A stretch of DNA of 64,000 nucleotides from an uncultured virus (IMG/VR IMGVR_UViG_3300031134_000641) (IMGVR_UViG_3300031134_000641); one strand, 5' to 3'. Positions 16,322 to 45,710 are shown, counted from the first letter of the stretch. A program made the numbers and translations. The notes: a model not told the origin generated them from the sequence alone.

Positions 16322-16338
16322 AAGATTAAGGTAGAGAC

Positions 16339-16677: not shown

Positions 16678-17511
16678 ATGGTTATGGGGCCAACCCACTC
16701 AATGAGTGGAGCAGCAGCCTGGTTAGCTGGAGTAGCTATCTACTCAAACTTAACCCAAACACCGATTGACCCAGCTTTACTTGTATTGGGAACAGCTGTG
16801 TCCGCTGGTGCTGCCTTAGCCCCCGACATTGACTCAAACAGTTCTACTGTTGTTCGCTCATTTGGTTTTGTTGGTAAAGGCCTGCATCATGCTGTTAACA
16901 TCCTCAGTGTTGCTATATACAACATCACACGAAGACGCAAGGATGAACCTAGAGAAAATGGGCACCGAACGTTGTTCCACACGGGTGTTTTTGCTATCCT
17001 CGCTGGAGGTTTGACAGCGCTAGCGGCATTGTCAACAGGTGATGCCATTACGGTGGCGGGGACCACGCTCTCATGGGGCCAAGTGTTCTCCCTGATCATC
17101 ATGACTGTGTTCACTCATCTAGCTCTCGCTGGACTGTTTGAAAAGCCCATCAAAAAAGCGAGAAAAGCTTTTGGTCCTCTACCCCTTCTAGCCATGTCTC
17201 TAGTAATTACTATTGCGACAGCTATCCTTTTGCCTCCAGCAGACGGGGCTTCTTATTCATGGCTTGGGCTGGCTGTAGGATTCGGTTGGTTCATGCATCT
17301 TCTAGGTGATGCTATTACCAAAATGGGTGTTCCTCTGGCATGGCCTCTACCCATTCGTGGTCGTGCTTGGTGGGATGTTTCTCTTCCAGGTTTCATGAGA
17401 ATCACAGCAGGTGGAACATTTGAGTACGTTTTCTTGTTACCTGTATTGACGTTAGCAGCAATTGGTTTCGGAATATGGGATGTAATTATTTGGTCAGGAA
17501 TGGTGAATTAG
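16678..17511 (+). CDS. Membrane metal-dependent hydrolase (YdjM-like)
   Basis: MGPTH, PDID, HRTLFH, HLLGDAITKMGVP motifs. Confidence 0.85.
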   Translation: MVMGPTHSMSGAAAWLAGVAIYSNLTQTPIDPALLVLGTAVSAGAALAPDIDSNSSTVVRSFGFVGKGLHHAVNILSVAIYNITRRRKDEPRENGHRTLFHTGVFAILAGGLTALAALSTGDAITVAGTTLSWGQVFSLIIMTVFTHLALAGLFEKPIKKARKAFGPLPLLAMSLVITIATAILLPPADGASYSWLGLAVGFGWFMHLLGDAITKMGVPLAWPLPIRGRAWWDVSLPGFMRITAGGTFEYVFLLPVLTLAAIGFGIWDVIIWSGMVN

Positions 17512-17515
17512 AAGT

Positions 17516-18010
17516 ATGTCAGAGCCGCAGAACCCTGTAGCTACAGTTAAGCTCGCATATCGTGGGCAAGCGATTAATCTGGATGAGATTCCACATCATG
17601 AACTTCCCCCACCTGGTAGCGTGTCAATTAACTCACAGTTCAAAGACTATGAGCCAGCAATTGATGTTGACTATGAAGACCTACTCTCAGTAAACCGTCA
17701 GCTCATAGAGTTGCGCATGCGAATTCATAGAATCCGTAAAGAGCTTGAAGTCGCTAAACGCCGCGCTTTGGCAGCTAAATATGTTTATGAATCCGAGAAA
17801 AAACGTGTTTGGATTGGTATTACAGGTGGGTCAGATAAAAGTCGTGAGGCGGCAGCTGAGCTTATGTGTGAAGAGTCCCTTACAAAGTACCTTGTTGCAA
17901 ACACTGTAGCAGATGAGATCAACCAGCACTCACGTGACATTAAAACCGAGTTGGACACGCTGAAGGAAATTTCAAACAACCTTCGCCGCCAAATCGGTTT
18001 GAACGACTAA
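17516..18010 (+). CDS. Coiled-coil hypothetical protein
   Basis: 164 aa helical ORF. Confidence 0.55.
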   Translation: MSEPQNPVATVKLAYRGQAINLDEIPHHELPPPGSVSINSQFKDYEPAIDVDYEDLLSVNRQLIELRMRIHRIRKELEVAKRRALAAKYVYESEKKRVWIGITGGSDKSREAAAELMCEESLTKYLVANTVADEINQHSRDIKTELDTLKEISNNLRRQIGLND

Positions 18011-18021
18011 GGTATAAACAC

Positions 18022-18579
18022 ATGCAAGTAAATAAGTCTTTCTCCATCCTAAGTATAATCTTAGGGGCAATATCCTTTGTCGCTGCCACAGTGCTGACCT
18101 TGGATAAAATTAAATTGCTAATGGACCCGTCTTTTGTACCTGCATGTAGCATAAGCCCTTTCGTAGCGTGTGGACCAGTGATGAGTTCACCTCAAGCTTC
18201 TGCATTTATCATACCTAATTCAGTGATAGGTATGATAGCTTTCACCCTAGTCGTATTCATTGGAATATTGTCGCTTTTCACAGTCTTCCCTAGATGGTTC
18301 TGGTATGGGTACACAGCTGGCATAGCGTTAGGAATGGGATTCATTATATGGTTGATGACTCAATCCTTATATGTGATCTCCGCTTTGTGCATATACTGTA
18401 TGTGCGTTTGGGTATGTATGATACTTTTGTTCTGGTTTAGTGTTGGCAATATTGTCAAAGACACAAAGCTTAACTTTATCAACGAATACAAGACCTTATT
18501 CATTATTGCTTCATATGTCGCTGTGGCTTTAGCTATCTTTTTCAGATTTGAAACATACTGGATCTCTCTTTTAAGCTAA
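18022..18579 (+). CDS. Vitamin K epoxide reductase (VKOR) family protein
   Basis: CSISPFVACGPVMSS loop cysteines; TM CIYC (CxxC). Confidence 0.9.
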   Translation: MQVNKSFSILSIILGAISFVAATVLTLDKIKLLMDPSFVPACSISPFVACGPVMSSPQASAFIIPNSVIGMIAFTLVVFIGILSLFTVFPRWFWYGYTAGIALGMGFIIWLMTQSLYVISALCIYCMCVWVCMILLFWFSVGNIVKDTKLNFINEYKTLFIIASYVAVALAIFFRFETYWISLLS

Positions 18580-18609
18580 CCATGTCTTCCGTTCTGTTAT
18601 ATATTAAAC

Positions 18610-19116
18610 ATGCCTAAAGAATACTGCCGTGCTAAGAACCCAGCACAATGCGTTGATTCTAACTGCCCTGAAAAGAGGGGTGTGGCTAACCGCCTTAGTG
18701 CAGCAGTTAAAGCGCAAGACTTTGATGCTTTTGTGTCTGCCAAGCAAGCTGAAGCAAAACCTCGCAAGAAAATAAACCGTGTTCCCAAAACTCGGGATGC
18801 TTTGAAGGCTGAGATAGCAAAGAAATACCCTTCAGTCACTTTCCATTTGAATGGTAGTGAAGCTGACTACGTAGTGCTTGACCTTATTAGCGTACCTAAG
18901 AACTTACGTGGTCAAGGTGTAGCTAAAGAGATTATGCAAAAGCTTGTTGACACTGCCGACCAGAACAGCTGGAATTTGGCTTTGACACCTAGTAATGACT
19001 TTGGAGCAAGCAAACCACGGCTTGAAGCTTTCTATAGAAGCTACGGCTTCGTCAAAAATGCAGGGCGGAACAAAGATTTCACAACTATGAACAGTATGAT
19101 CAGGCCCAAAAGCTAA
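18610..19116 (+). CDS. GNAT acetyltransferase with N-terminal Cys motif
   Basis: VPKNLRGQGVA and FYRSYGF motifs; N-terminal CRAKNPAQC. Confidence 0.8.
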   Translation: MPKEYCRAKNPAQCVDSNCPEKRGVANRLSAAVKAQDFDAFVSAKQAEAKPRKKINRVPKTRDALKAEIAKKYPSVTFHLNGSEADYVVLDLISVPKNLRGQGVAKEIMQKLVDTADQNSWNLALTPSNDFGASKPRLEAFYRSYGFVKNAGRNKDFTTMNSMIRPKS

Positions 19117-19161
19117 TGAGTTAAGCCCCGCAGAATTGATTCTGCGGGGCTTAACTCATTA
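19113..19161. terminator. Bidirectional terminator-like palindrome
   Basis: taatgagttaagccccgcagaat / attctgcggggcttaactcatta between convergent genes. Confidence 0.75.
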
Positions 19162-19203
19162 AACAAACAACCTCAGCTTGCTGCTCTATAAAAGCCTCAG
19201 AAG

Positions 19204-19374
19204 CTATCCTGTGCCTTCTCTGATGGCAATCTCGTCCTCTAGAGCGTTAATAAGTGGAAGTTTTGTTCGCGCTTTAGCTAACAAGTTGTTTTTGATGCAA
19301 TTGTCGTAGCTTTTCATTGTCTCAGCAAGCTTAGCTTTAATTTCTTCTAGGCTTAGTTCAGTTAGATTCTCCAT
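19204..19374 (-). CDS. Small hypothetical protein (56 aa, below ORF-track cutoff)
   Basis: MENLTELSLEEIKAKLAE... read by hand. Confidence 0.45.
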   Translation of the reverse strand: MENLTELSLEEIKAKLAETMKSYDNCIKNNLLAKARTKLPLINALEDEIAIREGTG

Positions 19375-19428
19375 GGTTCAACCAAAGAGTTTGGGCCGCA
19401 TAGAATATTCCATGCGGCCCAAACTCTT

Positions 19429-20766
19429 TTAGACAATACCACCAAGAGCAGGCTGTGAAACCTTCTTCTTAGCTACAGTCTCAATGGCCTCAACAAGGTT
19501 AGGCAGGTCAAGCTGGCGAGGGCAGGATGCAACAAGTGTTGAAAGTGCAAAGTCCTCTCCTACGTTCATGTTGATGAGGTCGCGGAAGGTGATAAGCTCA
19601 CGCATCTGTGGAACCCAAACCCCAGGGCCACCAGCTGCAATGTCACGCTGGTTGCGTGTCTCAAGGTTGCGAGCAATCTTGATAGCAAGGTCGGGGACCT
19701 TCAGACGCTTGGCCGTGGTGAAGTCAGTTGTAACCTCAATCTGTACACGGAAACGAGACACAAGAGCCTCATCCAGTGCGCGAGCGCCTAGGGTGTCAGG
19801 GTTGTAGCCCATGACAACATAGAAACCAGGGATAGCGGTAACCATGGGAAGGTCAGGGCGGTCGTCAATACGAAGAACACCACGACCATCCATGACAGAG
19901 AACAGAATGTTCAGGACTTCAGTGGGAATACGTGTACCCTCATCAACGAACAGAACATGACCGTTCTTCATCGCACGGACCAGAGGACCATCAGACCAAA
20001 TCCATCCACCAGGGTTAGCAGGGTCAGGAAGGTAGTTACCGACGAAGTTTGCCACAGTCATATCACCGTGGCCGTTCACTGTAACGAGATCCTTGAAGCT
20101 ACCCTCAACGAGGGCTGTCTTACCACCGCCAGGAGGGCCAGCAAGTCGGACGAAGACGCCCTTAGTGCGGAACTCATGCAGAAGCGCAACATCAGTGTGA
20201 CCAAAAATCTCACGGGGGAAGTACTCTTCACCGTTAGGACGAATGGACTTGCCACCAGTCTTAGTGAACTTCTGAGAAGCCGCCGCAACATGCTGCTTGG
20301 AGGCAACAGGAGCCTGAGGTGCGACAGGAGCAGTAGACCCACCAGCCAGGAACTTGGTGACAGGGTCGCCATATGTTGAGTATGAGTTGGGCACAGTAGT
20401 TTTGGTACCGGCAAGTCGGCTGGCCTCAGAGCGGAAACGGTCCATGGCTGCTTTCATCTTAGCCTCAGTCCACCAGTTCAGGTCAGCTGACTGGGGAACG
20501 TCAGGAATGTCTACTTTAACGAAGCCGTAGGAAAGCTCGTTGTACTCGTTCTTCTTCACCTTGGAGTTGAAAACGCTAGCAACAGCGCTGGCAAGACTAG
20601 CCTTACGGTACTTGTCTGTACGGTAGGTACCGGGTGTCAGAGCATTTGTCGCACGGTTTCGCTGACCTGAGTGTGTCAGGACTAGACCGTTCTCAAAAGC
20701 GATCACAGTGTAGTGCTTACGTCCGGGGCTTGTTGAGCTTGACAGCATGTAACCAATAGCTAGCAT
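19429..20766 (-). CDS. MoxR/CbbQ-type AAA+ ATPase with N-terminal extension
   Basis: GPPGGGKT; WSDGPLVRAM; LFVDE; GYNP; DEALVSRF. Confidence 0.9.
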   Translation of the reverse strand: MLAIGYMLSSSTSPGRKHYTVIAFENGLVLTHSGQRNRATNALTPGTYRTDKYRKASLASAVASVFNSKVKKNEYNELSYGFVKVDIPDVPQSADLNWWTEAKMKAAMDRFRSEASRLAGTKTTVPNSYSTYGDPVTKFLAGGSTAPVAPQAPVASKQHVAAASQKFTKTGGKSIRPNGEEYFPREIFGHTDVALLHEFRTKGVFVRLAGPPGGGKTALVEGSFKDLVTVNGHGDMTVANFVGNYLPDPANPGGWIWSDGPLVRAMKNGHVLFVDEGTRIPTEVLNILFSVMDGRGVLRIDDRPDLPMVTAIPGFYVVMGYNPDTLGARALDEALVSRFRVQIEVTTDFTTAKRLKVPDLAIKIARNLETRNQRDIAAGGPGVWVPQMRELITFRDLINMNVGEDFALSTLVASCPRQLDLPNLVEAIETVAKKKVSQPALGGIV

Positions 20767-20814
20767 GTTATGCCTCTTTCTGATGAAGTATGATACGAAA
20801 ATTAATGTACCTTT

Positions 20815-20895
20815 ACTCTAGCAAAGGTATAAGCCTATGTCAAGTCGAAAACAAACTTTTTTAGAGTTGACATATATGCTGCCATACTGTACAGT
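20815..20895. promoter_or_regulatory. Divergent sigma70-type promoters for the AAA and vWA genes
   Basis: + strand TTGACA(20867)-17-TACAGT, ATG 6 nt later; - strand TTGACA(20843)-17-TAGAGT. Confidence 0.7.
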
Positions 20896-20901
20896 GTAAC
20901 T

Positions 20902-22689
20902 ATGAGTATTTGGACTGATGCAAAAGACCCAGAGTGGGCTGAGCTTGCTAAGCGAACTGAAGAGTTCGTTGACAAGCTCACAGCAAGAGGAGACCTTGTT
21001 GTTATTGTCGCGCCTGACCTCAGAGAGGATGAAGAAAAAGCCAAGCTTGATGTTGACGCTCTCCCCGCAGGCTACTTTGACCCTAACAAAGCAGAGATTC
21101 ACCTTGACGCTTCGCAGCTGCTTGACAACCGTCTAGCTGATGTGAAATTTGTTGACCCCGGAGCTTTCTACTCACAGCGGGCATTCCCCCAGTATGTGGG
21201 TGCTGTAGTTCACGAGTCTGCTCATGCAAAGCACTCAAACACCGACTTCCCTGAAAAGATCAACTCTAACGTACTAAAGTGGATGACTACACTAGAGGAG
21301 ACTCGCTGCGAAGGTCAGCTTCTAGAGGATTTCCCTCAGTACACTCGCTATGTCAAGAGTATCGTTAAGACTCTTGTTGCTGGTGACTTCATCAAGAACC
21401 CTAAGATCATCGCGCACCTAGGCAAGGATGTGTATGCTCGCTACGAGGTAACACGCACTGCTCTTCTTGTAATGGCACGTGAGGATATTGGTGTTTTTGA
21501 GCCAGGAGAGCTTGACAACGCTGAGAGCCGTATCATCAACGTTCTAGGCAAAGAAGATTACTTCAAAATTCGTGACCTGTGGCTTGAAGCTCAGAACGTT
21601 GCCGATGGCGACATTGCAGAGCTACAGGAAATTGCTGAAGAGATCCAGAAGATTGTTGACCCCAACAATGAAAAGGACAAAGTTGATGAGGCTTTTGTAG
21701 CTGGAACTCTAACTGGTGACGGTTCCGGTGCAGCAAATGTTGCAGCCAGTGCTTCAAGCGTTATTGACCAGATTATCAATGACGTTGATGTTATTGGTCA
21801 GTCCACTGTTAAGGAAATTCGGGATGATGCAGGTAACACCTACAACTTCAAGAAGAACCAGCAGCAGGAGGACCAGGAGCTTCGTGAGCAGAACCAGAAG
21901 GTTGCTCAGAACTTCAACTCAACCCCTGGTTCAGGCATCGGGCGTGGATGGTATGACCCTACTTTCCGGCTTGTTGACCCGAAGGCGACAGACATTGGAC
22001 GAATGCGTGCTATTACGCTGGCTTTGAAGAAAGCACAGTATCGTGAAGTTCATAAGTCTCACATTCGTTCGCAGCTTCCCCCGGGAAGACTGGACATGCG
22101 TGAAGCACTGAACCGTCAGGCTCAGATTGAGTCTAACCAGAACATCACCGCTGCTCCTTGGAAGCAGACAAGGCGACGTGAGGTTGACAACCCGCCAATC
22201 ACATTAGCTGTTGCATCAGATATCTCTGGTTCAATGTCTGCTTGGCAGTATGAGGTTTCCTCATTCACTTGGGCTGTGGCAAACAGTGTTCGTCAGATGC
22301 AGGGTAAAGTTGGTGCAGTAGCATGGAACGGTAAGTCGTACCCTTTGATTAAGCCGAACAACGTTCAGCCTAAGATTGGTTACTACTCTGCTAACGGTGG
22401 TAGTGATGGCTGCCCTGATGCCATGAAGACACTTGACGGCCTGATGGACCTGAGCTTTGGTGAGGGTGTTAAGGTGCTGGCAATCATCACTGATGGTCTT
22501 CTTCCGAACAACAAAGAAATTCAGAAGGAAATTACCAGATTGACTCAGCGTGGTGTTATTGTTCTTTGGATTCTCACAGAAAGCCGTGGTTTCCGCCCCA
22601 AGAACACAACCGTTGCTGTACTCAGAAAGCCTGAAGAGTTTGGCGTTGTAGTCGGCCAGAAGCTGATTGAAGCGCTAAGCGAAGCGTAA
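20902..22689 (+). CDS. CobT-like protein: HExxH metallopeptidase-like domain plus vWA domain
   Basis: VHESAH; MIDAS DISGSM; ITDG. Confidence 0.85.
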   Translation: MSIWTDAKDPEWAELAKRTEEFVDKLTARGDLVVIVAPDLREDEEKAKLDVDALPAGYFDPNKAEIHLDASQLLDNRLADVKFVDPGAFYSQRAFPQYVGAVVHESAHAKHSNTDFPEKINSNVLKWMTTLEETRCEGQLLEDFPQYTRYVKSIVKTLVAGDFIKNPKIIAHLGKDVYARYEVTRTALLVMAREDIGVFEPGELDNAESRIINVLGKEDYFKIRDLWLEAQNVADGDIAELQEIAEEIQKIVDPNNEKDKVDEAFVAGTLTGDGSGAANVAASASSVIDQIINDVDVIGQSTVKEIRDDAGNTYNFKKNQQQEDQELREQNQKVAQNFNSTPGSGIGRGWYDPTFRLVDPKATDIGRMRAITLALKKAQYREVHKSHIRSQLPPGRLDMREALNRQAQIESNQNITAAPWKQTRRREVDNPPITLAVASDISGSMSAWQYEVSSFTWAVANSVRQMQGKVGAVAWNGKSYPLIKPNNVQPKIGYYSANGGSDGCPDAMKTLDGLMDLSFGEGVKVLAIITDGLLPNNKEIQKEITRLTQRGVIVLWILTESRGFRPKNTTVAVLRKPEEFGVVVGQKLIEALSEA

Positions 22690-22807
22690 GCTTTCAAACA
22701 AATGCCGGGATACACAAGTTTCTGTGTATCCCGGCATTTGACTTTCCTAAGAGATTCCAGTACAGTAATAAACGACCACCTGTTGGAATAGAAAAATTGG
22801 AGCTTCA

Positions 22808-24235
22808 ATGTTTATCTTTGTTGCCATTACCACCGTCGCAGCTGTTTTCGTGGCGCTTGCTGTTAAGTACTTTGTCAACGTCGGCTGGGTTGCTGTTACT
22901 GCTGCAACCGCCATTGTTGCAGCAGTTGTCGCCCCTGCCACCTTTGCGATTGGTTCCAACATCGCTATCCGCGATGCCACCACATTCCACGAATACTGGA
23001 ACGGTTACGAGACTGCTGCAAAAACAAAGATTGTTGACTGCCAAAGGGATGGTAGTTGCGTACACGAGTACAACTGTGACCCCTACCAGGAAACTTATTA
23101 TGTCACTGTGACTGACAGTAAAGGAAACTCCCACAGCGAGCCGCGTCAGCGCACAGCTTACCACGACTGCCCTTATTCGACTCAGGAGACCACCTACTAC
23201 GTTGAGTCAACCCTTGACTCTTACACAATTGCTTCCAATTACATGACGGGTAACGACTGGCGTGCAGGTCACCCCATTCCTGGTGGCCGTCAGGAGGCTC
23301 CTGCCCAGTGGACCGCCGCACGTGAGCGTGTTGAGTCGGGCAAGCCTGGCCCTGTCACTGCTGTCAAGAACTACGCTAACTACATTCTTGCTTCATCTGA
23401 GACTCTTTTCTCCAAGTATGAGGGAGCGATTGAACAGTATAAGACTGATGGCATGCTTACTACCCCTTCAAAGGGTGTCTACGACAGTTACAATGCTGAC
23501 AAAGCATACTTTGTCGGTGGAGTCAAAAACCTTGACCAGGCTGACCTTAAAAAGCAGGTTGCTTACTTAAACGGGGCTTCAGGTGTGGAGCTTCAGGGTG
23601 ACGTACATGTTGTCTTTGCTCCTGCCACAACCGCAGGAGACCCCACAGACTACAGCAATGCGCTTCTTGCTTACTGGCAGTCTAAAGAACTTGGACGTGA
23701 CGCTATCTCAAAGAACTCCATCATCGTTGTTGTGGGTGTTGACAAGCTGAAGAATGCTGATACAGGTGATAGCTACACGGGGGCCAAGTGGGTCAAAGCT
23801 TTCACAGGTATGCCTCTCGGTAACGAGTACATGCTGACACAGGTTGAGTCTGAGCTTAAAAACGCTCCGATTGATGCTTCTTTCATTGGTACACCTAACT
23901 ACACCGTTTCCACAGGAAAAATCACTCACTCAGATGGCAAGCTTGAAAGCATCCTCTGGGGCGACCATAAGTTTGAGCGGGTGTCAATGACAGCTGGTGA
24001 CGACAATGATAAGGGTGCCGGATTTGAGTTCCTGAAAGATCAGCTGAAGCCCAGCGCGGGCGCTATTGTAGGTATGAGCTTTGTTGCTGGATTCATTGGT
24101 CTTATGACTTTCTTTGCAGCTGTACTATTGAGCTTCAACTACTCCAGCCAGAACACTGCTAAAAGCTCACACCCGTTTGAAAGAACCTGGTCGTCAAGTG
24201 AGAGAAAGCGTTCAAACAGCTTCTACAGTTTTTGA
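22808..24235 (+). CDS. Membrane protein with large extracytoplasmic domain
   Basis: N- and C-terminal TMs; Cys-rich EYWNG..CDPY..CPY region. Confidence 0.7.
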   Translation: MFIFVAITTVAAVFVALAVKYFVNVGWVAVTAATAIVAAVVAPATFAIGSNIAIRDATTFHEYWNGYETAAKTKIVDCQRDGSCVHEYNCDPYQETYYVTVTDSKGNSHSEPRQRTAYHDCPYSTQETTYYVESTLDSYTIASNYMTGNDWRAGHPIPGGRQEAPAQWTAARERVESGKPGPVTAVKNYANYILASSETLFSKYEGAIEQYKTDGMLTTPSKGVYDSYNADKAYFVGGVKNLDQADLKKQVAYLNGASGVELQGDVHVVFAPATTAGDPTDYSNALLAYWQSKELGRDAISKNSIIVVVGVDKLKNADTGDSYTGAKWVKAFTGMPLGNEYMLTQVESELKNAPIDASFIGTPNYTVSTGKITHSDGKLESILWGDHKFERVSMTAGDDNDKGAGFEFLKDQLKPSAGAIVGMSFVAGFIGLMTFFAAVLLSFNYSSQNTAKSSHPFERTWSSSERKRSNSFYSF

Positions 24236-24308
24236 TTTGACTTTCAAAAACTAACCCGCTATACTTCAACTACACTTACAAGATTCCTACAGAACAGAGA
24301 GTACAACA

Positions 24309-25007
24309 ATGTCAACTAACTCAACTTCGTCTGACGCTAAGAACTTCTTCCAGAAGCACATGAAGCTCATCCTTGGTGGCATCGCAGCGTTCGTGCTGAT
24401 CATCATGGTTCTCAGCACTTTCGGTTTCGTGGACACAACTCGTAATGAGGGAATCCAGAAGGAGGCTGCTCTGGTCGCTCAGTACAACGACAACCAGAAT
24501 GAGCTTTCTTCCTACCTTGTGACAACCTACGAGGCACTAGGCATCGCTGACCGACAGTCGGAGGAGCTAAACAAAATTCTCGTTGAGGCTGTTAAGGGCC
24601 GCTACGACAACGATGGCTCTCTCCAGCCTGGTACTGGAGGCGCACTGTTCTCATCCATTACCGAGGCTTACCCTGACCTGAGCGGTAACACTGAGCTTTA
24701 CGGTAAGGTGCAGGACCAGATCATCTCTGGCCGTAACGCTTATAAGAACAAGCAGACCCTACTTACCCAGCAGATTGCCAACTACAACACCTGGCGTGAG
24801 AGCGGACTGTTCAAGTCATTCGTTATCAAGCAGCTTGGGTTCCCCTCTGACCGCCTGGTAGTCACCGTCAACGGCCAGAAGGTCCGTGGTGAGGATGCTC
24901 TAGACCAGATTGCCACCCTTGTCCTCACTGACGAGGCCCGAGAGTCCTACGACTCAGGCACTCTAGACCCCATCATCATGCCTCGTGGGGATGATGAAAC
25001 AGAGTAA
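24309..25007 (+). CDS. LemA-like membrane-anchored protein
   Basis: TM, then helical bundle with ITEAYPDL and GRNAYKNKQ..YN. Confidence 0.55.
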   Translation: MSTNSTSSDAKNFFQKHMKLILGGIAAFVLIIMVLSTFGFVDTTRNEGIQKEAALVAQYNDNQNELSSYLVTTYEALGIADRQSEELNKILVEAVKGRYDNDGSLQPGTGGALFSSITEAYPDLSGNTELYGKVQDQIISGRNAYKNKQTLLTQQIANYNTWRESGLFKSFVIKQLGFPSDRLVVTVNGQKVRGEDALDQIATLVLTDEARESYDSGTLDPIIMPRGDDETE

Positions 25008-25084
25008 CAAGTTAATAGCAAAGCCCTTCACATTAGATTGTGGAGGGCTTTGCTATTTGGGCTAAAGTATGATACAATCACTAC

Positions 25085-25768
25085 ATGCTATACTTATTCG
25101 CTATGCTACTGAGTACCGGTTCAATCGGTTTCCTTACGTGGGTTGTTGCCGACAGTTTTAAAAACCGCAGAAGCAGCCAAGCTGCCCTGCCTAGTCTACA
25201 CAAAAGCGATGTGAAGAGTATAAAAGCAGCCCAAGTCAAAGCCATCAACAGTATGCTGAAAGACCCTGCTCTACCTTCGGAGATTAAAGCATCAATCACC
25301 GAAATTACACAAAAGGTTGATTATCTAAAGGGCAACCTACAGCACTGCTCAGCTGAGGAAAAGCATACAGTTAACTCTGTTCTCACAAACTACCTGCCTA
25401 ACATTGTTGCAAACTATCTTGACCTACCAGAAGATATACGAAACTCAAAGAACGAAACTACAATTAAGGTGTTCAACCAGATTCAGGTTATCAACGAGCG
25501 TCTAGACGCAATCAAAGAGAACACAACAGCCCGTGCGGTTGCAAAAGTAGACACAGAGTCAGACTTTCTTCATGAACGTTTTGGCGCTCTAGAAAAGCCG
25601 GTTGAGTTAAAGCAAATTACTCCTCCTAAGAAAAAAGCTATAACTGCTACCGAAAACCAGCAAGCGGAGTCACCCACAGATTTAGATACCAGAACACTTC
25701 AATCAGAAGTAACTGACACAGACGAAATAAACCAAATTTTTGAAGCACTCTTTAAGGACAAACACTAA
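25085..25768 (+). CDS. Membrane-anchored helical protein (XpaC-like)
   Basis: TM plus NYLPNIVANYLDLP; paralog of the next gene. Confidence 0.5.
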   Translation: MLYLFAMLLSTGSIGFLTWVVADSFKNRRSSQAALPSLHKSDVKSIKAAQVKAINSMLKDPALPSEIKASITEITQKVDYLKGNLQHCSAEEKHTVNSVLTNYLPNIVANYLDLPEDIRNSKNETTIKVFNQIQVINERLDAIKENTTARAVAKVDTESDFLHERFGALEKPVELKQITPPKKKAITATENQQAESPTDLDTRTLQSEVTDTDEINQIFEALFKDKH

Positions 25769-26617
25769 ATGAAACTCGCAAAGAAAATTCACCTTCTCGG
25801 TGTCAAGCAGTACACAACCTTAGTCTCCGGTGGAGGACTAGCATACGGACTAGTAGCCCTTGGCACACCTCTTCTCGGTGGAGTTCCAATCGGGATTGGT
25901 GCGTCTGCGGTTTCTATCGCAGTTGGTGCCGCAGCAATTATCCCATTCCGTAAAACCAATGTTCTAGCAGCTGAGCCAGAAATCATCAAGGCTAAAGCCA
26001 TTGTTCCTGATAACGAAGCGAAAAGAGACAACACTAAGCTGACACAGAACATCAACAAAATCAAAGTACAGACTGCCAGCGCAAAATATACCCTCCCCGC
26101 TAGCGCTCAGACTGAACTAGACAAAATTCATGCTAAAGCCTTGGAGATTATCACTCAGGAGGACCTGAACAACGTAGAAACCCGCCTGAGGATGACATTG
26201 GAGTCTATGTTCTCTTCATATATCCCTGAGTCAATCAGTTACTTCTCTCAGCTGACACCTAAAGATAGGATGGAAGGCACACCTGGTGCTGTGCAGCTTA
26301 AAGACCAGTTTGAGAGAATGCTGAAAGCAATCAATAAGGTAGAAAAAGAAATCTACGACTCAAAGATTGAAAAGTTTGAAGTGCATTCCAGATTCGTACA
26401 AGACCGTTTCGCTGACTATGACGAAGAAAGTAAGGCCAATTCTTCTGAATCCCCAGTGGCGTCTTTCCCCCGCATCCCTAATGCCGCTGAGACAGAAGCT
26501 CTAACTCTTGCAAAGCTGGAAGAACGAGATCGTCAACGAGAACTACAGCTAGCAGGTAACAGGCGGAAACCCGCAGCAGCTGTTGCACAGCCTAAGAAGC
26601 GCCGCTGGTTTTCCTGA
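25769..26617 (+). CDS. Membrane-anchored helical protein (XpaC-like)
   Basis: TMs plus SYIPESISYFSQL..RFVQDRF. Confidence 0.5.
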   Translation: MKLAKKIHLLGVKQYTTLVSGGGLAYGLVALGTPLLGGVPIGIGASAVSIAVGAAAIIPFRKTNVLAAEPEIIKAKAIVPDNEAKRDNTKLTQNINKIKVQTASAKYTLPASAQTELDKIHAKALEIITQEDLNNVETRLRMTLESMFSSYIPESISYFSQLTPKDRMEGTPGAVQLKDQFERMLKAINKVEKEIYDSKIEKFEVHSRFVQDRFADYDEESKANSSESPVASFPRIPNAAETEALTLAKLEERDRQRELQLAGNRRKPAAAVAQPKKRRWFS

Positions 26618-26678
26618 GAAAATGGTTGAGGGCTTTACCAAATCCTGGTAAAGCCCTCAACCATTTTTCGTATATGTC

Positions 26679-27758
26679 TTAAGATTCTGTAGGAGCAAAA
26701 GCAGTTGCCTTAGCTAACTTAGAGAAGCCGCTAACGCCAGTTTTAGCACTCAACAACTTCACGAACAAATTGTGTTTGGTGACCGAAGCTCGCTTACGAA
26801 CTTCAAAGAAACCTTTCGGGTTCCAACTCATAAAAATGTTGCCGCCAATGATACAGTTTTCTTTCGGCTGAGGAGGTACATCATATAGAACAGTCTTGTG
26901 TAAGCTGTCCACATAAACTAAGTTACCCCCAGCAAAGACCGTTCCTGAAGCAGCTGCTTTAACGGATTCAAGAGAACCCTCCCAAGCGTTAGTTCCACTG
27001 AGTTTCTTTTTCAGCATCAACTCAACATCAAAAAGCTTAGTAAGCTCATCAACTGAGACAACAATAACATCTTCTGTCTTCAGATCAACCTGAACAACCA
27101 GTTTATAGTCTTGTTTCAGTAACTCTCGCTTAAACCATTCGGCGGGAATTAGCTTGTCTTCACCCGTAACATTATTATACTCAGGGTATTTATTGAAGAA
27201 GCCAACAAGTTTCCCATCATCATGGTGGAAACCATTTTCATCTACGGACACTGTATCCCACACACCCTGGTACTTTGTTGGCACAATGAGGGCTTTGACA
27301 GTAGATGAATCAGAATGCAGTACGACAGTTGATGTGTTCTGGATATCACCAGCCCATTCATCTCCAAACGAGGACAATAAAAAAGATAACCCCACGGCAG
27401 TCGCCTGATTGTACTTACCGGATACACCTGACAACTTTAAAGCACCCTTAACGCTGTCGTCTCTCATCAGCAGGGAAGCTTTGTAAGCCGCTAACTGAGA
27501 TTTGCGTAAAGCTTCGCCATCTACCATCTTTTTAGTCAACAAGCTACGACGTACAGGGTCAGCTTCCTGATCGCGTTCTTGCCTTAGCAGGTTCTGTCCA
27601 CGAGGTGTTGAATTGAAAGCAGCTGTTTTCTCGTCCAGTATTTTTCCAAGCCTAATCTTCTCAGTAGGCTCCGAGCAGTACTCAAATGCTCTCAGGGCAT
27701 CTAAGTAATCTGCGTTAGCATGGGCGCTACATCTTGGTCCAGGTTGGGGGAAGCACAT
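26679..27758 (-). CDS. Cys-tag family protein (MCFPQPGPRCSAH) with unknown cargo domain
   Basis: Shared N-terminal motif plus FNSTPRG; CCGATA upstream on the minus strand. Confidence 0.7.
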   Translation of the reverse strand: MCFPQPGPRCSAHANADYLDALRAFEYCSEPTEKIRLGKILDEKTAAFNSTPRGQNLLRQERDQEADPVRRSLLTKKMVDGEALRKSQLAAYKASLLMRDDSVKGALKLSGVSGKYNQATAVGLSFLLSSFGDEWAGDIQNTSTVVLHSDSSTVKALIVPTKYQGVWDTVSVDENGFHHDDGKLVGFFNKYPEYNNVTGEDKLIPAEWFKRELLKQDYKLVVQVDLKTEDVIVVSVDELTKLFDVELMLKKKLSGTNAWEGSLESVKAAASGTVFAGGNLVYVDSLHKTVLYDVPPQPKENCIIGGNIFMSWNPKGFFEVRKRASVTKHNLFVKLLSAKTGVSGFSKLAKATAFAPTES

Positions 27759-30983: not shown

Positions 30984-31060
30984 CAGGGTATGGGAAAGTT
31001 TGGTAATCCGTCATGTTAGGAACGTGAAGACCGCGAGTTCAAATCTCGCTACCCTGACCA
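30984..31060 (+). tRNA. tRNA-Pro(AGG)
   Basis: tcatg-ttAGGaa-cgtga; encoded CCA. Confidence 0.85.
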
Positions 31061-32368: not shown

Positions 32369-32472
32369 CGAAACAGTAGTTAAGGTTCATGTTGGAGTTA
32401 ACCTTTGAGATTACTGTTGTATCGAAAGTTTGCATTGAGCTTGCGTAGCGAATTCATTGTAACTCCAACTTG

Positions 32473-32561
32473 GGAAGCGTGTCAGAGTCCGGCTTATTGA
32501 GTTAGTCTTGAAAACTAAAGTGGTGTTAAAGCCACCGGGGGTTCGAATCCCTCCGCTTCCG
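32473..32561 (+). tRNA. tRNA-Ser(TGA)
   Basis: ttagt-ctTGAaa-actaa; long variable arm. Confidence 0.95.
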
Positions 32562-32663
32562 CGTAGTAAAGCATGCGTACTATGAATGTGATTGACGCCC
32601 AGCATTGACGGAAACTGATGTAGCTGGTCACACAGTTTTTGTGTGGCAAAAAAATTCATATTA

Positions 32664-32737
32664 GGGGATGTAGCTTAATGGTAAAGCTTCAGTCTTCCAA
32701 ACTGATGACGCGGGTTCGATTCCCGTCATCCCCTCCA
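32664..32737 (+). tRNA. tRNA-Gly(TCC)
   Basis: tcagt-ctTCCaa-actga; CCA. Confidence 0.95.
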
Positions 32738-32885
32738 AAGCCTTTGAACAATCCCTAGCCTGGAAGATTGGTTAGATTGCTTAGGTTACCGTCTTCCTAC
32801 ATAATCTTTTGTGTAGAAAAGGTCTAACGCGACTTGACTTCCTGTTAAGCATGTGTTAGAGTAATATCAACAAGCAACATAATGC

Positions 32886-32957
32886 GCCTTCATAGCTCAA
32901 CGGAAGAGCAAGTGTTTTCTAGGCACCAGGTTGGGGGTTCGAATCCCTCTGGGGGCA
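32886..32957 (+). tRNA. tRNA-Arg(TCT)
   Basis: agtgt-ttTCTag-gcacc, imperfect stem. Confidence 0.7.
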
Positions 32958-32985
32958 CGCAACAATTTAATAAGCAACACAACAT

Positions 32986-33065
32986 GCGGATGTATACCCT
33001 CTCGCTGATAACGAGTTGAAAGGTTAATAGGTTGCACGTGGGTTCAATTCCCACCATCCGCACCA
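32986..33065 (+). ncRNA. Rearranged tRNA-like RNA with GAT anticodon arm, no canonical D-arm, CCA end
   Basis: gcggatg/catccgc-ACCA; ctcg-ctGATaa-cgag; gtggg-ttcaatt-cccac. Confidence 0.75.
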
Positions 33066-33383
33066 CATATTCATTCTCAACCAAAAGATTTTTGGTGACA
33101 GTAAAAGTTCGTTTTGAATGGGTAGCTCACGGTACGCACGGGTGAGCGAATGTCAGCTATAGGCAGGGTGACGCTGGCGCATCGTAACAAAGTTTCTACG
33201 AAAAGCATTTGACTTGAATGTTAACATGTGTTATCGTAGAGTATACGGCGTAATGCTCTCAGAACAAGTGAGAGACAACCGCTACTCTAACTTCAGGTAA
33301 AGCATCACAGCTACAGTATTGTGAAGCGGTGCCTTCCGTAATCAGTCGGACGTATGTTTGCCTACGAAAAAGGTGAACACCAT

Positions 33384-33456
33384 TGCCCCATAGCTCAATT
33401 GGCAGAGCGGCGCACTGTTAATGCGTAGGTTGTAGGTTCGAGTCCTACTGAGGCAG
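33384..33456 (+). tRNA. tRNA-Asn(GTT)
   Basis: gcgca-ctGTTaa-tgcgt. Confidence 0.9.
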
Positions 33457-33540
33457 CGCAACGTAAACATCTTTCGCTTAAAGCTTGACGTGTTTCACGG
33501 GCCTGGGACTATATGCTGCGGCAGTCTTAGGTCAGCACAT

Positions 33541-33613
33541 GGTCCTGTAGCTCAAAGGATAGAGCGCTTCGCTACGAACGAAGAGGTTGGGGGTTCGAGT
33601 CCCTTCAGGACCA
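33541..33613 (+). tRNA. tRNA-Arg(ACG)
   Basis: cttcg-ctACGaa-cgaag. Confidence 0.95.
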
Positions 33614-33745
33614 CGCAAAAAACTGGTTGCCGTACTTTGGAGTGGGTACAGCAAGGGCTTATGCGCCCTACCGTGACCAGTATAAATATGCATGGTTCAA
33701 CCAAAAAAGGTTGAGCTTCACTACAGGTGAAGAAAGCATATATTT

Positions 33746-35008: not shown

Positions 35009-35083
35009 GCTCACGTATCCCAACTGGCAGAGGAGCTAAGCTCAGACCTTAGTAATGTGTGGGTTCAAATCCCACCGTGAGCA
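35009..35083 (+). tRNA. tRNA-Leu(CAG) with short variable loop
   Basis: ctaag-ctCAGac-cttag. Confidence 0.85.
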
Positions 35084-35085
35084 CT

Positions 35086-35164: not shown

Positions 35165-35952
35165 GCTTCACTTGTGAAGCTGAACAATAGCGGCATGACG
35201 CTATAAACCATCGCAAGGTGGGGAAAGACCAGTGTGACACCTGGTCGCCGTGTAAGCGGTATCTCATGCAATCTGAAACTGTTAAACGCTCCCGCAACGG
35301 GGTGTTAATGGTGCGAGTTACATGTAAGATCAAGTGAAGGGCAACTGCTATATAACTTGGTAAAGCTAACGGGGCTGTTTACATGCTGCAAGCACCATTT
35401 CAGTAAGGAAGGAATAGTAGTCCAAGCCTGTCAAGCGAGGGCGGATTCCACGAACGGAAAATAGGGAACGCCGGTTTCCTTGCCAGTCCGGGAGATTGCA
35501 ATTAGTGTGACAACGAAAGCATCAGAGGTGTGAAGTATTCTGTGAGTCAAAAACTTACGGAGCTTTGCGGAAAAGCACATCTCTAGTCAAAGATATTAGC
35601 TCAATTGGCAGAGCAACTGTATATGAAACAGTGAGTTGGTGGTTCAATCCCATCATATCATTCAAAGCGAAAGACTTTTCCTGTCACTTCGTGAAAGTGC
35701 CTTAATGCTTGGCCCGTGAGGGAACCAAGCCTCCAAGAAGCCCGCAAGGTGGAATGGAGTTCATGTGAAAGTAGTGCAGCAAAGAGGTTTAGCGGCCCCT
35801 TTGCGAATCAAAATCAGTGGAGAAGCGTGTGACATAAGGAGTAGCATCCCGAAGATGCTAGGCACGGAAGATACAGTGGGGACACTGTGGAAAAGTTGGG
35901 AAACAATAATCCAACTAAAGGCTTCCAACAAAGGGTTTATTCTCAGCCCTTT
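35165..35952 (+). ncRNA. GOLLD-like giant structured ncRNA (~790 nt) with embedded tRNA-like element
   Basis: No credible ORF; GNRA-capped hairpins between tRNA-His and tRNA-Gln; blocks gaggtgtgaagtattc..tcaaaa..cacatctc, gaaagtgccttaat..cccgcaagg and 3' aaggg..ctcagccctt resemble GOLLD as recalled, not aligned. Confidence 0.7.
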
Positions 35953-36293: not shown

Positions 36294-36376
36294 TCCGGTG
36301 ATGGGAAATTGGCGTCCTAGCAAGCTGTTAACTTGTGGCTGAAATATGCATGTAGGTTCGAATCCTGCCTCCGGAG
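36294..36376 (+). tRNA. tRNA-Asn(GTT) with long variable arm
   Basis: gcaag-ctGTTaa-cttgt; variable region ggctgaaatatgcat. Confidence 0.75.
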
Positions 36377-36511
36377 CAAATAGCGTATTCTAAAAAGTAT
36401 GCTATGATAGGTAGTAACACGACTGGCTGTTCTCCCCGTGAACAGGTTAACACTCCCTGTTTCCATGAAAATGTGAAGAGAGGCAGCCAGTTTTCTTCTC
36501 AAAGGAAAACA

Positions 36512-37783: not shown

Positions 37784-37855
37784 GCCTCTGTAGCTCAAAG
37801 GAAGAGCATCGGTCTTTTAAACCGAGGGTTGTGGTGTCGGGATCCACTGGGGGCA
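37784..37855 (+). tRNA. tRNA-Lys(TTT), aberrant T-loop (possible pseudogene)
   Basis: tcggt-ctTTTaa-accga; T region gtggtgtcgggatccac. Confidence 0.6.
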
Positions 37856-39190: not shown

Positions 39191-39331
39191 GTGTCAAAAG
39201 AACACTCCGGCTATGGAAGTAGCTGGTGGTGGAAGAGTGCTGTTGGTGAAGCACAGTAGGCCAAGAGCCTACTCTCCCCTTCCAGGGAGGAAGCGTGGGT
39301 TCAATTCCCATTCACCGCGTTCGTTTGACAC
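39191..39331 (+). ncRNA. tRNA-like domain with extra arms, closed by an outer stem
   Basis: gtgtcaaa/tttgacac outer stem; four hairpins plus T-arm gtggg-ttcaatt-cccat. Confidence 0.6.
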
Positions 39332-40113: not shown

Positions 40114-40196
40114 GGTGGTTATGGCGTAATTGGTAGCCGCGCTGGATTGTGATTCCAGTGTCTTCGGACGTGCGGGTTCAAGTCCCGTTAATCACC
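40114..40196 (+). tRNA. tRNA-His(GTG) with G-1 and class II-like variable arm
   Basis: ctgga-ttGTGat-tccag; variable arm tgtc-ttcg-gacg. Confidence 0.8.
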
Positions 40197-40333
40197 CGAG
40201 ATGCTGCTGGTGCCTCTCCTGTCTTGAACAGTGAAGCTAAAGCAGCAGCCTTCTGTTGGCTTCTCCCGGCTTGAACGGTGTCAGCTGACAGAAGGTTTTT
40301 ATATGATGGTTAGAGGTTCAATTCCTCTGAGGC

Positions 40334-40867: not shown

Positions 40868-40951
40868 GCTTGTGTGGCGGAATTGGTAGACGCGCTAGAC
40901 TAAGGATCTAGTTCCCGTAAGGGAGTGGGAGTTCGACTCTCCCCATGAGCA
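40868..40951 (+). tRNA. tRNA-Leu(AAG)
   Basis: ctaga-ctAAGga-tctag; Leu D-arm and variable arm. Confidence 0.9.
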
Positions 40952-40985
40952 CTCATCCTTGACAGTTATATGGTTAAACTGTTAT

Positions 40986-45507: not shown

Positions 45508-45710
45508 GTTTGGCTGGTGAAGAGAGAAACTTCCCGTAAGATTACATGTATACGAAGCATGCCTCGTGTGTGTTGTAGATGTAGTTTCCTGTTGAATGTC
45601 TCCTCTGCTCTCACGGTGTTATCACAGTAAACTCCCCCAGGACGGAAACGTAGCAAGGGTAGCTGTGCTCTAGCAGGTGTGATGGGCAGAGGAGACTTTT
45701 TTGTGCTACA

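What the first reader, a model, noticed from the sequence alone, without database searches (positions are those of the whole stretch)
32986..33065. Rearranged tRNA-Ile(GAT)-like RNA standing in for the missing canonical Ile tRNA
It has a perfect acceptor stem, A73-CCA, a T-arm and a canonical CU-GAU-AA loop. However, the anticodon arm follows the acceptor strand after only ~8 nt, and a D-loop-like segment (aggttaataggttgcac) lies 3' of it. I found no normal Ile(GAU) gene in the window. It may be a functional tRNA with a novel fold or an IleRS/nuclease decoy (inference).
Basis: partly seen in the sequence, partly recalled or inferred. Interest (0 to 1): 0.72.

Follow-up and report, generated by a model that had tools for sequence, protein, structure and literature searches.

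The report
Rewired phage tRNA-Ile, D-loop moved
This 80-base gene in a phage tRNA array belongs to a widespread, apparently undescribed class of phage isoleucine and arginine tRNAs in which the D-loop sits after the anticodon arm instead of before it, so the cloverleaf is rewired yet all signs of a working tRNA are kept.

Summary
Window 32986-33065 has a 7-bp acceptor stem, an anticodon hairpin (loop CUGAUAA) only 8 nt after it, a 12-nt GG-containing segment, a normal T arm, A73 and CCA. ARAGORN misses it.

It is not a one-off.

In 134 unique copies:
- All helices covary, including a 3-bp helix that encloses the anticodon hairpin.
- Anticodons are almost only Ile or Arg.
- Ile copies carry A73 and GG-U. 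Arg copies carry GG-A, the place of A20.

In 13 complete phage genomes, 13 of 18 such tRNAs are the only bearer of their anticodon. The window has 62 canonical tRNAs but no other GAU tRNA.

Best reading: a functional elongator tRNA-Ile(GAU) with a transposed D-loop, charged by the host IleRS. Expression and charging are untested. Why the core is rewired is unknown. I found no description in print.

The parts
32986..32992 (+). acceptor stem, 5' strand (G1-G7)
   Evidence: 7 of 7 Watson-Crick pairs with 33055-33061. In the family, six of the seven pairs show compensatory changes and 98.2% of cells are paired.
32993..32994 (+). U8 A9 connector
   Evidence: Invariant in 134 of 134 copies, but the search pattern fixed these letters. 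U8 with A41 could mimic the canonical U8-A14 pair (inference).
32995..32998 (+). U10 A11 C12 C13: 5' strand of the D-stem-like helix that encloses the anticodon hairpin
   Evidence: Pair 11-39 is Watson-Crick in 133 of 134 copies, using all four pair types. Pairs 12-38 and 13-37 change in a compensatory way in copies found by the covariance model only (A-U, G-C; stems CGG/CCG, CAC/GUG, CGA/UCG). RNAalifold predicts the helix on its own.
32999..32999 (+). C14, the single 5' nucleotide of the internal loop
   Evidence: Invariant, but the pattern fixed it. It may pair with G33 (inference).
33000..33016 (+). anticodon arm: U15.U31 plus the 4-bp stem CUCG/CGAG, loop CUGAUAA, anticodon GAU at 33007-33009
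   Evidence: Stem pairs 16-30, 17-29, 18-28 and 19-27 all show compensatory changes. The loop has U33 and A37-A38. The Rfam tRNA model aligns it as the anticodon arm.
33017..33021 (+). U32 G33 A34 A35 A36: 3' side of the asymmetric internal loop or bulge
   Evidence: G33, A35 and A36 are invariant and A34 is at least 90% conserved, partly fixed by the pattern. Divergent copies keep a 3-8-nt purine-rich bulge here, such as AGUA, AGAU or UAUA.
33022..33025 (+). G37 G38 U39 U40: 3' strand of the D-stem-like helix
   Evidence: See 32995-32998. U10.U40 is U.U in 134 of 134 copies.
33026..33037 (+). A41 A42 U43 A44 G45 G46 U47 U48 G49 C50 A51 C52: D-loop-like plus variable-loop-like linker
   Evidence: G45 and G46 are at least 90% conserved. 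The base after GG is U in 63 of 65 Ile copies and A in 57 of 66 Arg copies. R42 covaries with Y52 (A-U 85, G-C 35, A-C 7, G-U 2; Fisher 3.5e-22), like the canonical 15-48 pair. The window copy is one of the 7 A-C cases.
33038..33054 (+). T arm: GUGGG / UUCAAUU / CCCAC
   Evidence: Canonical T loop. In the family, four of five stem pairs show compensatory changes and 98.4% of cells are paired.
33055..33065 (+). acceptor 3' strand (33055-33061), discriminator A (33062), encoded CCA (33063-33065)
   Evidence: The discriminator is A in 63 of 63 Ile-type copies. CCA is encoded in 49 of 109 unique copies.
32834..32958 (+). promoter-like site (32834-32862) and canonical tRNA-Arg(UCU) (32886-32958), 27 nt upstream: a likely shared transcription unit
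   Evidence: TTGACT-17-TAGAGT with a TG before the second hexamer. The region gave 2 sites against 1.4 expected, so this is weak. tRNA. Co-transcription is inferred.

Best explanation
Window 32986-33065 encodes a working elongator tRNA-Ile(GAU) of a phage-borne structural class in which the cloverleaf is rewired.

Architecture. After U8-A9, the strand U10-N11-C12-C13 runs straight into the anticodon arm. Its pairing partner (G37-G38-N39-U40) comes after the anticodon arm and a purine bulge (GAAA). The D-loop-like stretch (A-R-N-N-G-G-N...C-A-Y) comes last, joined directly to the T arm. The D-stem therefore encloses the anticodon hairpin instead of the D-loop.

Inferred geometry. Five anticodon-stem layers, one C14-G33 layer and four D-like layers give the same ten-layer arm as a normal tRNA. 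Above them, U8-A41, R42-Y52 and G45-G46 can replace U8-A14, R15-Y48 and G18-G19 at the elbow.

Inferred function. The RNA is cut out of a short tRNA transcript and charged by the host's IleRS through the GAU anticodon and A73. It then reads AUU and AUC in phage messages, completing an otherwise nearly full phage tRNA set.

Shown: the family, its helices and covariation, the restriction to Ile and Arg, the identity marks, and the slot-filling pattern.
Inferred: the 3D layering, processing, charging and decoding.
Unknown: why the core is rewired.
For: (1) Family.
- blastn of the 80 nt finds 92 phage records, 85 of them covering at least 80% of it. They include 82 Streptomyces and 3 Microbacterium phage records.
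- The same scan finds 32 loci in 185,579 species genomes. Most sit inside tRNA arrays.

(2) Structure.
- On 134 unique copies, 90.4% of cells are paired against 62.1% when shuffled. The covariation score is 0.731 against 0.181, with 0 of 500 shuffles reaching it. Slid controls give at most 51.4% paired.
- RNAalifold finds the same four helices without guidance, and 15 of 18 pairs show compensatory changes.
- The window copy scores 93 bits with the family covariance model; the next hit in the window scores 28.9. Because the window copy was in that model, the independent check is the leave-out profile, E 3.6e-20.

(3) tRNA-like constraints.
- Anticodons in 134 copies: TAT 40, ACG 34, GAT 25, TCT 17, CCT 7, TCG 6, CAT 2, CCG 1, GCG 1, plus one chance hit.
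- The roughly 20 further copies found only by the covariance model are all Ile or Arg.
- The discriminator is A in 63 of 63 Ile copies. In Arg copies it is G 39, A 21, U 6.
- The base after GG is U in 63 of 65 Ile copies and A in 57 of 66 Arg copies. A20 and A/G73 as ArgRS marks and A73 as an IleRS mark are recalled from E. coli identity studies, not tested here.

(4) Slot filling.
- Within +/-10 kb, a canonical tRNA with the same anticodon is present in 4 of 57 cases, against 109 of 279 for the other five Ile/Arg anticodons (Fisher 4.7e-7, not corrected for relatedness).
- In 13 complete or nearly complete phage genomes, 13 of 18 rearranged tRNAs are the only bearer of their anticodon.
- One genome with 41 canonical tRNAs lacks exactly ACG, GAT and TCT, which are its three rearranged ones.
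- Two genomes have no canonical Arg tRNA at all.

(5) The window.
- 62 canonical tRNAs cover all 20 amino acids, but Ile is served only by UAU.
- AUU plus AUC make up 493 of 563 Ile codons in 30 long ORFs.

(6) Precedent. A D-armless tRNA can work on the E. coli ribosome with EF-Tu and HisRS (abstract and passages of PMC11551756).
Against: - No transcript, processing or charging data. Four RNA-library runs gave no contig over the element, which shows nothing either way.
- 5 of 18 copies in complete genomes coexist with a canonical tRNA of the same anticodon (EGole, A3Wally, Magritte, G006, G010). For those, 'stand-in' cannot be the whole story.
- The window copy has A42-C52 where 120 of 134 copies have A-U or G-C.
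- The motif scan fixed many core letters. Their 'invariance' is therefore partly built in, and sister classes for other amino acids could have been missed.
- The slot-filling statistics ignore relatedness between phages.
- ARAGORN may miss other odd tRNAs.
- The 3D layering is reasoning, not a model.
Confidence: 0.75

Rival explanations
1. A decoy or sponge. The RNA shows a normal Ile (or Arg) anticodon loop and acceptor end to host tRNA-targeting defence nucleases or toxins, or to a synthetase. It soaks them up but is not itself used on the ribosome.
For: tRNA-cleaving defences and phage tRNAs that counter them are established: PrrC, PARIS AriB, retron PtuAB, Schlafen (passages of PMC13056530, and PMC11555353; abstract of PMC10264068). 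5 of 18 copies in complete genomes are redundant with a canonical tRNA of the same anticodon. The core is unusually conserved across very different phages.
Against: A decoy for anticodon nucleases has no need of class-specific discriminators, the A/U split after GG, a 7/5 acceptor-T helix or an encoded CCA. Slot filling in 13 of 18 cases, and phages whose only Arg tRNAs are of this kind, fit decoding better. No nuclease specific for Ile and Arg tRNAs was tied to these phages here.
Confidence: 0.12
2. A charged tRNA used outside ribosomal decoding, for example as an aminoacyl donor for a phage enzyme or as a regulatory or processing signal within the tRNA array.
For: The restriction to two amino acids is odd for a general structural innovation.
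Against: No protein cluster is shared by more than 18 of 112 loci, and the top clusters are spurious frames lying over tRNA genes. There is thus no linked enzyme at blastp sensitivity within +/-6-10 kb. Anticodon diversity (six Arg and two or three Ile anticodons) and slot filling point to codon reading.
Confidence: 0.06
3. A decayed tRNA gene (pseudogene), or a chance tRNA-like fragment created by an indel in the D region.
For: ARAGORN rejects it. The folding z-score is only -1.94. GenBank annotators left it blank in 53 of the 60 rows listed.
Against: There are 134 unique copies with compensatory changes in every helix. The identity marks are conserved, and the family occurs in phages of many host groups.
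Confidence: 0.02
4. A miniature tmRNA-like tRNA domain, as suggested by the weak tmRNA hit in the first Rfam scan.
For: RF00023 gave 27.7 bits, E 1.4e-7, spanning model positions 1-374. The permuted tmRNA model gave 18.2 bits.
Against: Both scores are below the gathering score of 47. The third acceptor pair is G-C, not G.U. There is no tag reading frame or pseudoknot in 80 nt. ARAGORN, which also looks for tmRNA, reports none. When searched alone, the tRNA model wins over the tmRNA model.
Confidence: 0.01

Closest known systems
Canonical bacterial and phage tRNA-Ile(GAU) and tRNA-Arg (Rfam RF00005)
   Same: 7-bp acceptor stem, 5-bp T stem with a UUCRANY loop, 7-nt anticodon loop with U33 and A37, discriminator A73, and CCA. 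A GG motif and an R-Y covarying pair like 15-48 are also present. It lies in a tRNA array. The last 29 nt match canonical tRNA-Ile genes of Gordonia phages at 93%.
   Different: There is no D hairpin between positions 10 and 25. The D-stem-like helix closes over the anticodon arm, and the D-loop-like stretch lies where the variable loop should be. An extra conserved GAAA bulge is present. ARAGORN does not call it.
D-arm-lacking mitochondrial tRNAs of animals (tRNA-Ser(AGY); nematode and mite 'armless' tRNAs)
   Same: Natural decoding tRNAs without a D hairpin, with a three-way junction of acceptor, anticodon and T arms (review passages PMC7609411; abstract of PMC4013460).
   Different: Those have a short 'replacement loop' 5' of the anticodon arm, lose the D-loop/T-loop contact, and rely on adapted mitochondrial factors. 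Here a D-like helix, a GG segment and a full T loop are kept, only in another order. The setting is bacterial viruses using host cytosolic machinery.
Engineered D-armless 'mini HisT' in E. coli (Edelmann et al. 2024, PMC11551756)
   Same: [quoted passage not shown]
   Different: It is artificial, needed a pnp mutation to accumulate, and simply lacks the D arm. Its abstract states that all known bacterial tRNAs are cloverleaves.
Allo-tRNAs and 8/4 or 9/3 tRNAs of bacteria and their phages (Mukai et al. 2017, PMC5389517)
   Same: Non-standard tRNA architectures found by mining metagenomes, some of them in phage tRNA clusters (abstract and passages).
   Different: Those change the split of the 12-bp acceptor/T branch and keep a D hairpin. 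They serve Ser, His, Cys and Sec, not Ile or Arg.
tRNA-like domain of tmRNA
   Same: Acceptor stem plus T arm, with a D-loop analogue that is not closed by its own stem. There is a weak model hit.
   Different: There is no anticodon arm in tmRNA. tmRNA has G3.U70 alanine identity and a message part, and none of these is present here.
Phage tRNAs that escape tRNA-targeting defences (van den Berg 2023; PARIS and retron studies)
   Same: Phage-encoded tRNAs that differ from host tRNAs in ways thought or shown to defeat host nucleases (abstracts; passages).
   Different: The described escapes are point changes in the anticodon loop or stem, or overexpression. Here the anticodon loop is ordinary and the body of the tRNA is rewired. 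No link to a defence system was tested.

Membership tests
tRNA (Rfam RF00005; functional elongator tRNA) | 7-bp acceptor stem, unpaired discriminator, 3' CCA (encoded or added) | tested here: met
   7 of 7 pairs, A at 33062, CCA at 33063-33065. Family: 98.2% of acceptor cells are paired.
tRNA (Rfam RF00005; functional elongator tRNA) | T arm: 5-bp stem and a 7-nt UUCRANY loop | tested here: met
   GUGGG-UUCAAUU-CCCAC. 98.4% of cells are paired in the family.
tRNA (Rfam RF00005; functional elongator tRNA) | Anticodon arm with a 7-nt loop, U33 and purine 37 | tested here: met
   Loop CUGAUAA. The stem covaries. The scan pattern required YU...RA, but model-only copies also keep the loop form, with small variants.
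tRNA (Rfam RF00005; functional elongator tRNA) | D arm: a hairpin between positions 10 and 25 that closes the D loop | tested here: not met
   The Rfam alignment deletes 15 D-arm positions. The helix 11-13/37-39 closes the anticodon arm instead.
tRNA (Rfam RF00005; functional elongator tRNA) | Score at or above Rfam's gathering score; call by a tRNA finder | tested here: inconclusive
   35.7 bits against 29 when searched alone. In the 34-kb search the clan competition kept a tmRNA hit of 27.7 bits instead. ARAGORN gives no call. tRNAscan-SE was not available.
tRNA (Rfam RF00005; functional elongator tRNA) | Aminoacylation and use on the ribosome | not testable with these tools
   Only indirect evidence: identity marks and slot filling.
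Isoleucine identity (bacterial IleRS substrates) | Anticodon GAU (or UAU, or modified CAU), A37/A38 and discriminator A73 (recalled from E. coli identity studies) | tested here: met
   GAU, A37, A38 and A73 in the window copy. A73 in 63 of 63 Ile-type copies.
tmRNA (RF00023) | G3.U70 pair, tag-peptide reading frame, pseudoknots, length of about 300-400 nt | tested here: not met
   G3-C pair, 80 nt. 27.7 bits against a gathering score of 47. No tmRNA from ARAGORN.
D-armless mitochondrial-type tRNA | Short unpaired replacement loop between acceptor and anticodon stems; no D-loop/T-loop elements | tested here: not met
   Here a covarying 3-bp helix and a conserved GG segment are present. ARAGORN's mitochondrial mode finds nothing.

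The most novel reading that the evidence does not exclude
Phages of many bacterial groups carry a topological isomer of tRNA that has gone unnoticed: a natural, translating Ile/Arg tRNA in which the D-stem 5' strand and D-loop are wired in a different order. It arose once and spread. It persists because the altered body escapes host (or phage-inflicted) tRNA-targeting nucleases, modifiers or decay that read the canonical D-arm region, while host IleRS and ArgRS, EF-Tu and the ribosome still accept it.
Probability: 0.3. Interest if true: 0.92.

Novelty: new variant of a known kind. Interest (0 to 1): 0.85.

Why it matters
The cloverleaf is treated as universal outside animal mitochondria. [quoted passage not shown] If these RNAs are charged and decode, several things follow.

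- The bacterial translation machinery naturally accepts a tRNA whose core strands are connected in another order. That bears on which features of the tRNA core are truly required.
- tRNA finders and phage annotation miss a recurrent gene. In 53 of the 60 GenBank rows listed there was no feature at the site, and one record calls it tRNA-Leu. Phage tRNA repertoires for Ile and Arg are therefore under-counted.
- It offers a ready-made scaffold for orthogonal tRNA engineering.
- It gives a concrete test case for the idea that phage tRNAs are shaped by host tRNA-targeting immunity.

Cultured carriers exist (Streptomyces and Microbacterium phages), so all of this can be tested directly.

Tried and rejected
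- Whole genome of the window: none is held.
- megablast of window 7000-27000 against phages: no match. The FtsK-like protein is only 31-32% identical to Bacillus and Mycobacterium phage proteins. The phage is new and its host is unknown.
- Expression. The run search found the DNA in phyllosphere, plant and straw metagenomes, plus four RNA-type runs with small shares. Laid on 32400-33700, their contigs covered only parts of canonical tRNAs and two short pieces from a relative (32785-32962, 33193-33357). Nothing lay over 32986-33065. This says nothing about expression.
- tmRNA reading: rejected (see rivals).
- Permuted tmRNA hit (18.2 bits), and the Plastid-ycf2 and other weak Rfam hits: all below their gathering scores.
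- Thermodynamic folding of the single sequence misses the 4-bp anticodon stem register and is not significant by itself.
- Linked protein partner. From 112 loci, 2988 ORFs of at least 90 aa were compared all against all. No cluster occurred in more than 18 loci, and the representatives of top clusters that I placed lie in the tRNA arrays, one directly over the element, so I read them as spurious frames.
- Recent duplication from the neighbouring canonical tRNA: the same-anticodon partners in G006, G010, EGole and A3Wally are not similar in sequence.
- Earlier findings of this scan: three look-ups returned nothing.
- Literature. Seven full-text searches and look-ups in six papers found no description of such a tRNA. 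Subscription journals and supplements were not searched.

Full report
**What is at the site**

The window holds a dense array of tRNA genes, all on the + strand. ARAGORN finds 62 between 30650 and 60841. The array sits in phage-like DNA with these features:
- an FtsK-like translocase, a sigma-factor-like protein, DUF2510, VKOR, Hsp70, Hsp20, an intein-bearing ORF and HNH (Pfam);
- a GOLLD RNA (230 bits) and a small SRP RNA (55 bits) inside the array.

No near relative is in the phage collection. No whole genome is held.

The element at 32986-33065 reads as follows (G1 = 32986).

| Part | Sequence | Coordinates |
|---|---|---|
| Acceptor 5' strand | GCGGAUG | 32986-32992 |
| Connector | U8 A9 | 32993-32994 |
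| D-like 5' strand | U10 A11 C12 C13 | 32995-32998 |
| Single nucleotide | C14 | 32999 |
| Anticodon arm | U15.U31 plus CUCG/CGAG; loop CUGAUAA | 33000-33016 |
| 3' internal loop | U32 G33 A34 A35 A36 | 33017-33021 |
| D-like 3' strand | G37 G38 U39 U40 | 33022-33025 |
| D-loop-like linker | AAUAGGUUGCAC | 33026-33037 |
| T arm | GUGGG-UUCAAUU-CCCAC | 33038-33054 |
| Acceptor 3' strand, A73, CCA | CAUCCGC, A, CCA | 33055-33065 |

ARAGORN does not call it, even in mitochondrial or pseudogene mode. When the region is searched alone, the Rfam tRNA model scores 35.7 bits (gathering score 29). It deletes the D arm and places an 18-nt insertion in the variable region. In the wider search, clan competition kept a sub-threshold tmRNA hit instead (27.7 bits against 47). 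Single-sequence folding is unremarkable (z -1.94).

**It is a family**

- blastn of the 80 nt against deposited phages finds 92 records, 85 of them covering at least 80%. They comprise 82 Streptomyces records (Samistivirus-type, about 130 kb), 3 Microbacterium, one uncultured 462-kb phage and one Kehishuvirus. Five Gordonia records match only the last 29 nt, within canonical tRNA-Ile genes.
- Of the 60 rows listed, 53 have no feature at the site. One is annotated 'tRNA-Leu', two lie under a CDS, and one record has no annotation at all.
- A four-sequence alignment showed covarying acceptor and T stems, and in A3Wally an Arg anticodon (ACG).
- The same motif found 32 loci among 185,579 species genomes: 31 MAG contigs of many phyla and one Achromobacter isolate. 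Most lie in arrays of 12-40 tRNAs, which is the usual look of phage or mobile DNA.
- Two of the 32 (L127, L135) are chance hits without a T arm.

**Structure**

Of 156 motif matches, 138 are unique. Four with faulty ends were dropped, and 134 were aligned as A2; one chance hit (L127) was left in.

On the proposed structure:
- 90.4% of cells pair against 62.1% when shuffled. The covariation score is 0.731 against 0.181, with 0 of 500 shuffles as high. Sliding the partners by 1-3 columns gives at most 51.4% paired.
- The key pair 11-39 was left free in the motif. It is C-G 62, A-U 53, G-C 10, U-A 8, other 1.
- RNAalifold, run on a 95-sequence subset (A3, picked from the 134 by dropping near-duplicates and faulty rows), predicts the same helices unaided.
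- A covariance model (R1) built from A3 finds further copies in the fetched loci that had missed the motif. In these, pairs 12-38 and 13-37 also change in a compensatory way: A-U, G-C, and stems CGG/CCG, CAC/GUG, CGA/UCG. The GAAA bulge is replaced by other purine-rich bulges.
- R42 and Y52 covary as A-U or G-C (85 and 35, against A-C 7 and G-U 2; Fisher 3.5e-22). This matches positions 15 and 48 of normal tRNAs. The window copy is one of the A-C exceptions.
- U8 and A41 are constant, and G45-G46 nearly so, though the motif fixed U8 and A41.

My reading is an inference. The chain order is acceptor, 8-9, one D-stem strand, anticodon arm, bulge, other D-stem strand, D-loop, T arm. The stacked arm still has ten layers, and the elbow contacts can still form.

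**Signs of function**

- Anticodons among the 134 copies: TAT 40, ACG 34, GAT 25, TCT 17, CCT 7, TCG 6, CAT 2, CCG 1, GCG 1, plus the chance hit.
- The model-only copies are also all Ile or Arg.
- The discriminator is A in 63 of 63 Ile-type copies. In Arg-type copies it is G 39, A 21, U 6.
- The base after GG is U in 63 of 65 Ile-type copies and A in 57 of 66 Arg-type copies. A at position 20 is the classic ArgRS mark in E. coli; that is recalled, not tested here.
- These class-specific marks are what a synthetase substrate needs. A mere nuclease decoy would not need them.

**Slot filling**

- In the +/-10-kb loci, a canonical tRNA with the same anticodon is present in 4 of 57 cases. For the other Ile/Arg anticodons the figure is 109 of 279 (Fisher 4.7e-7; 56 deduplicated loci with at least 5 tRNAs; no correction for relatedness).
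- Local windows can mislead, as EGole shows: its canonical GAU tRNA lies 18 kb away. I therefore fetched 13 complete or nearly complete phage genomes. These were three GenBank records and ten IMG/VR records rated 98-100% complete.
- They hold 18 rearranged tRNAs. For 13 of these, no canonical tRNA with that anticodon exists anywhere in the genome (with Magritte's UCU copy counted by hand).
- One phage with 41 canonical tRNAs lacks exactly ACG, GAT and TCT, which are its three rearranged ones. Two phages have no canonical Arg tRNA at all.
- The five redundant cases are EGole, A3Wally, Magritte (UCU), G006 and G010. In G006 and G010 the canonical partner lies 10-17 nt downstream. It is unrelated in sequence, and in G006 it has a long variable arm.

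**The window copy**

- It scores 93 bits with R1, against 28.9 for the next hit. It was part of that model. The independent check is a profile built without it, which gives E 3.6e-20.
- The array covers all 20 amino acids, but Ile is served only by UAU. AUU plus AUC are 493 of 563 Ile codons in 30 long ORFs.
- The gene lies 27 nt after tRNA-Arg(UCU), downstream of a promoter-like site.

**What remains open**

- Expression, processing and charging are untested. The RNA runs gave no cover.
- I found no reason for the rewiring. No linked protein exists. The link to tRNA-targeting defences is only a hypothesis.
- I found no published description. There were seven searches. The 2020 review of non-canonical tRNAs does not mention phages. 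A 2024 paper states that all known bacterial tRNAs are cloverleaves. Subscription literature and supplements were not covered.

**Verdict**

The element is a member of a large, conserved, phage-borne class of rewired Ile/Arg tRNAs. It is most likely a working tRNA-Ile(GAU) (0.75). I rate it a new variant of a known kind, of high interest.

Noticed in passing
window 35523-35949: GOLLD RNA (Rfam RF02032, 230 bits, full length) inside the tRNA array. ARAGORN calls a tRNA-His(AUG) at 35590-35663 within it.
   Followed up: no
window 45600-45697: Bacterial small SRP RNA (RF00169, 55 bits against a gathering score of 40) encoded in phage-like DNA between tRNA genes.
   Followed up: no
window 35009-35084: A tRNA with anticodon CAG (Leu by ARAGORN) that is only 76 nt long and has a short variable loop, whereas Leu tRNAs normally have a long extra arm. 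It was the second-best hit of the family model (28.9 bits) and starts G..GUAUC like the rearranged class, but it has a D hairpin.
   Followed up: partly
window 30984-31060, 39226-39319, 40868-40952, 35590-35663: tRNAs with A at the first anticodon position (Pro AGG, Leu AAG twice, His AUG). This is unusual in bacteria outside Arg ACG.
   Followed up: no
window 36294-36377 and 40115-40197: tRNA-Asn(GUU) of 84 nt and tRNA-His(GUG) of 83 nt, longer than usual for these classes.
   Followed up: no
window 37784-37855: The Rfam tRNA model hits here at 47 bits, but ARAGORN does not call it. It is a Lys(UUU)-like sequence with a degenerate T loop.
   Followed up: partly
L002 1418-1494 (Microbacterium phage Magritte 73446-73522): A second, divergent rearranged tRNA (Arg UCU; stem CGG/UCG; loop starting with G), directly upstream of the rearranged tRNA-Ile. 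It is unannotated in the record.
   Followed up: partly
G006 138318-138401 (IMG/VR record behind L030): Ten nt after the rearranged tRNA-Ile(GAU) lies an 84-nt tRNA with anticodon GAU and a long variable arm. That is a class-II body with an Ile anticodon.
   Followed up: no
L146 and L148 (MAG contigs labelled Prevotellaceae and Muribaculaceae): Rearranged copies with anticodon CAU (GG-U, A73). They could be Met or lysidine-type Ile. The surrounding arrays show no canonical CAU tRNA.
   Followed up: no
window 7573-9447: An ORF of 624 aa with an intein splicing domain (Pfam PF14890, E 3.2e-10).
   Followed up: no
window 32834-32862 and 33209-33237: Repeated promoter-like sites (TTGACT, 17 nt, TAGAGT or TATCGT, each with TG before the second hexamer) ahead of small groups of tRNA genes.
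   Followed up: no
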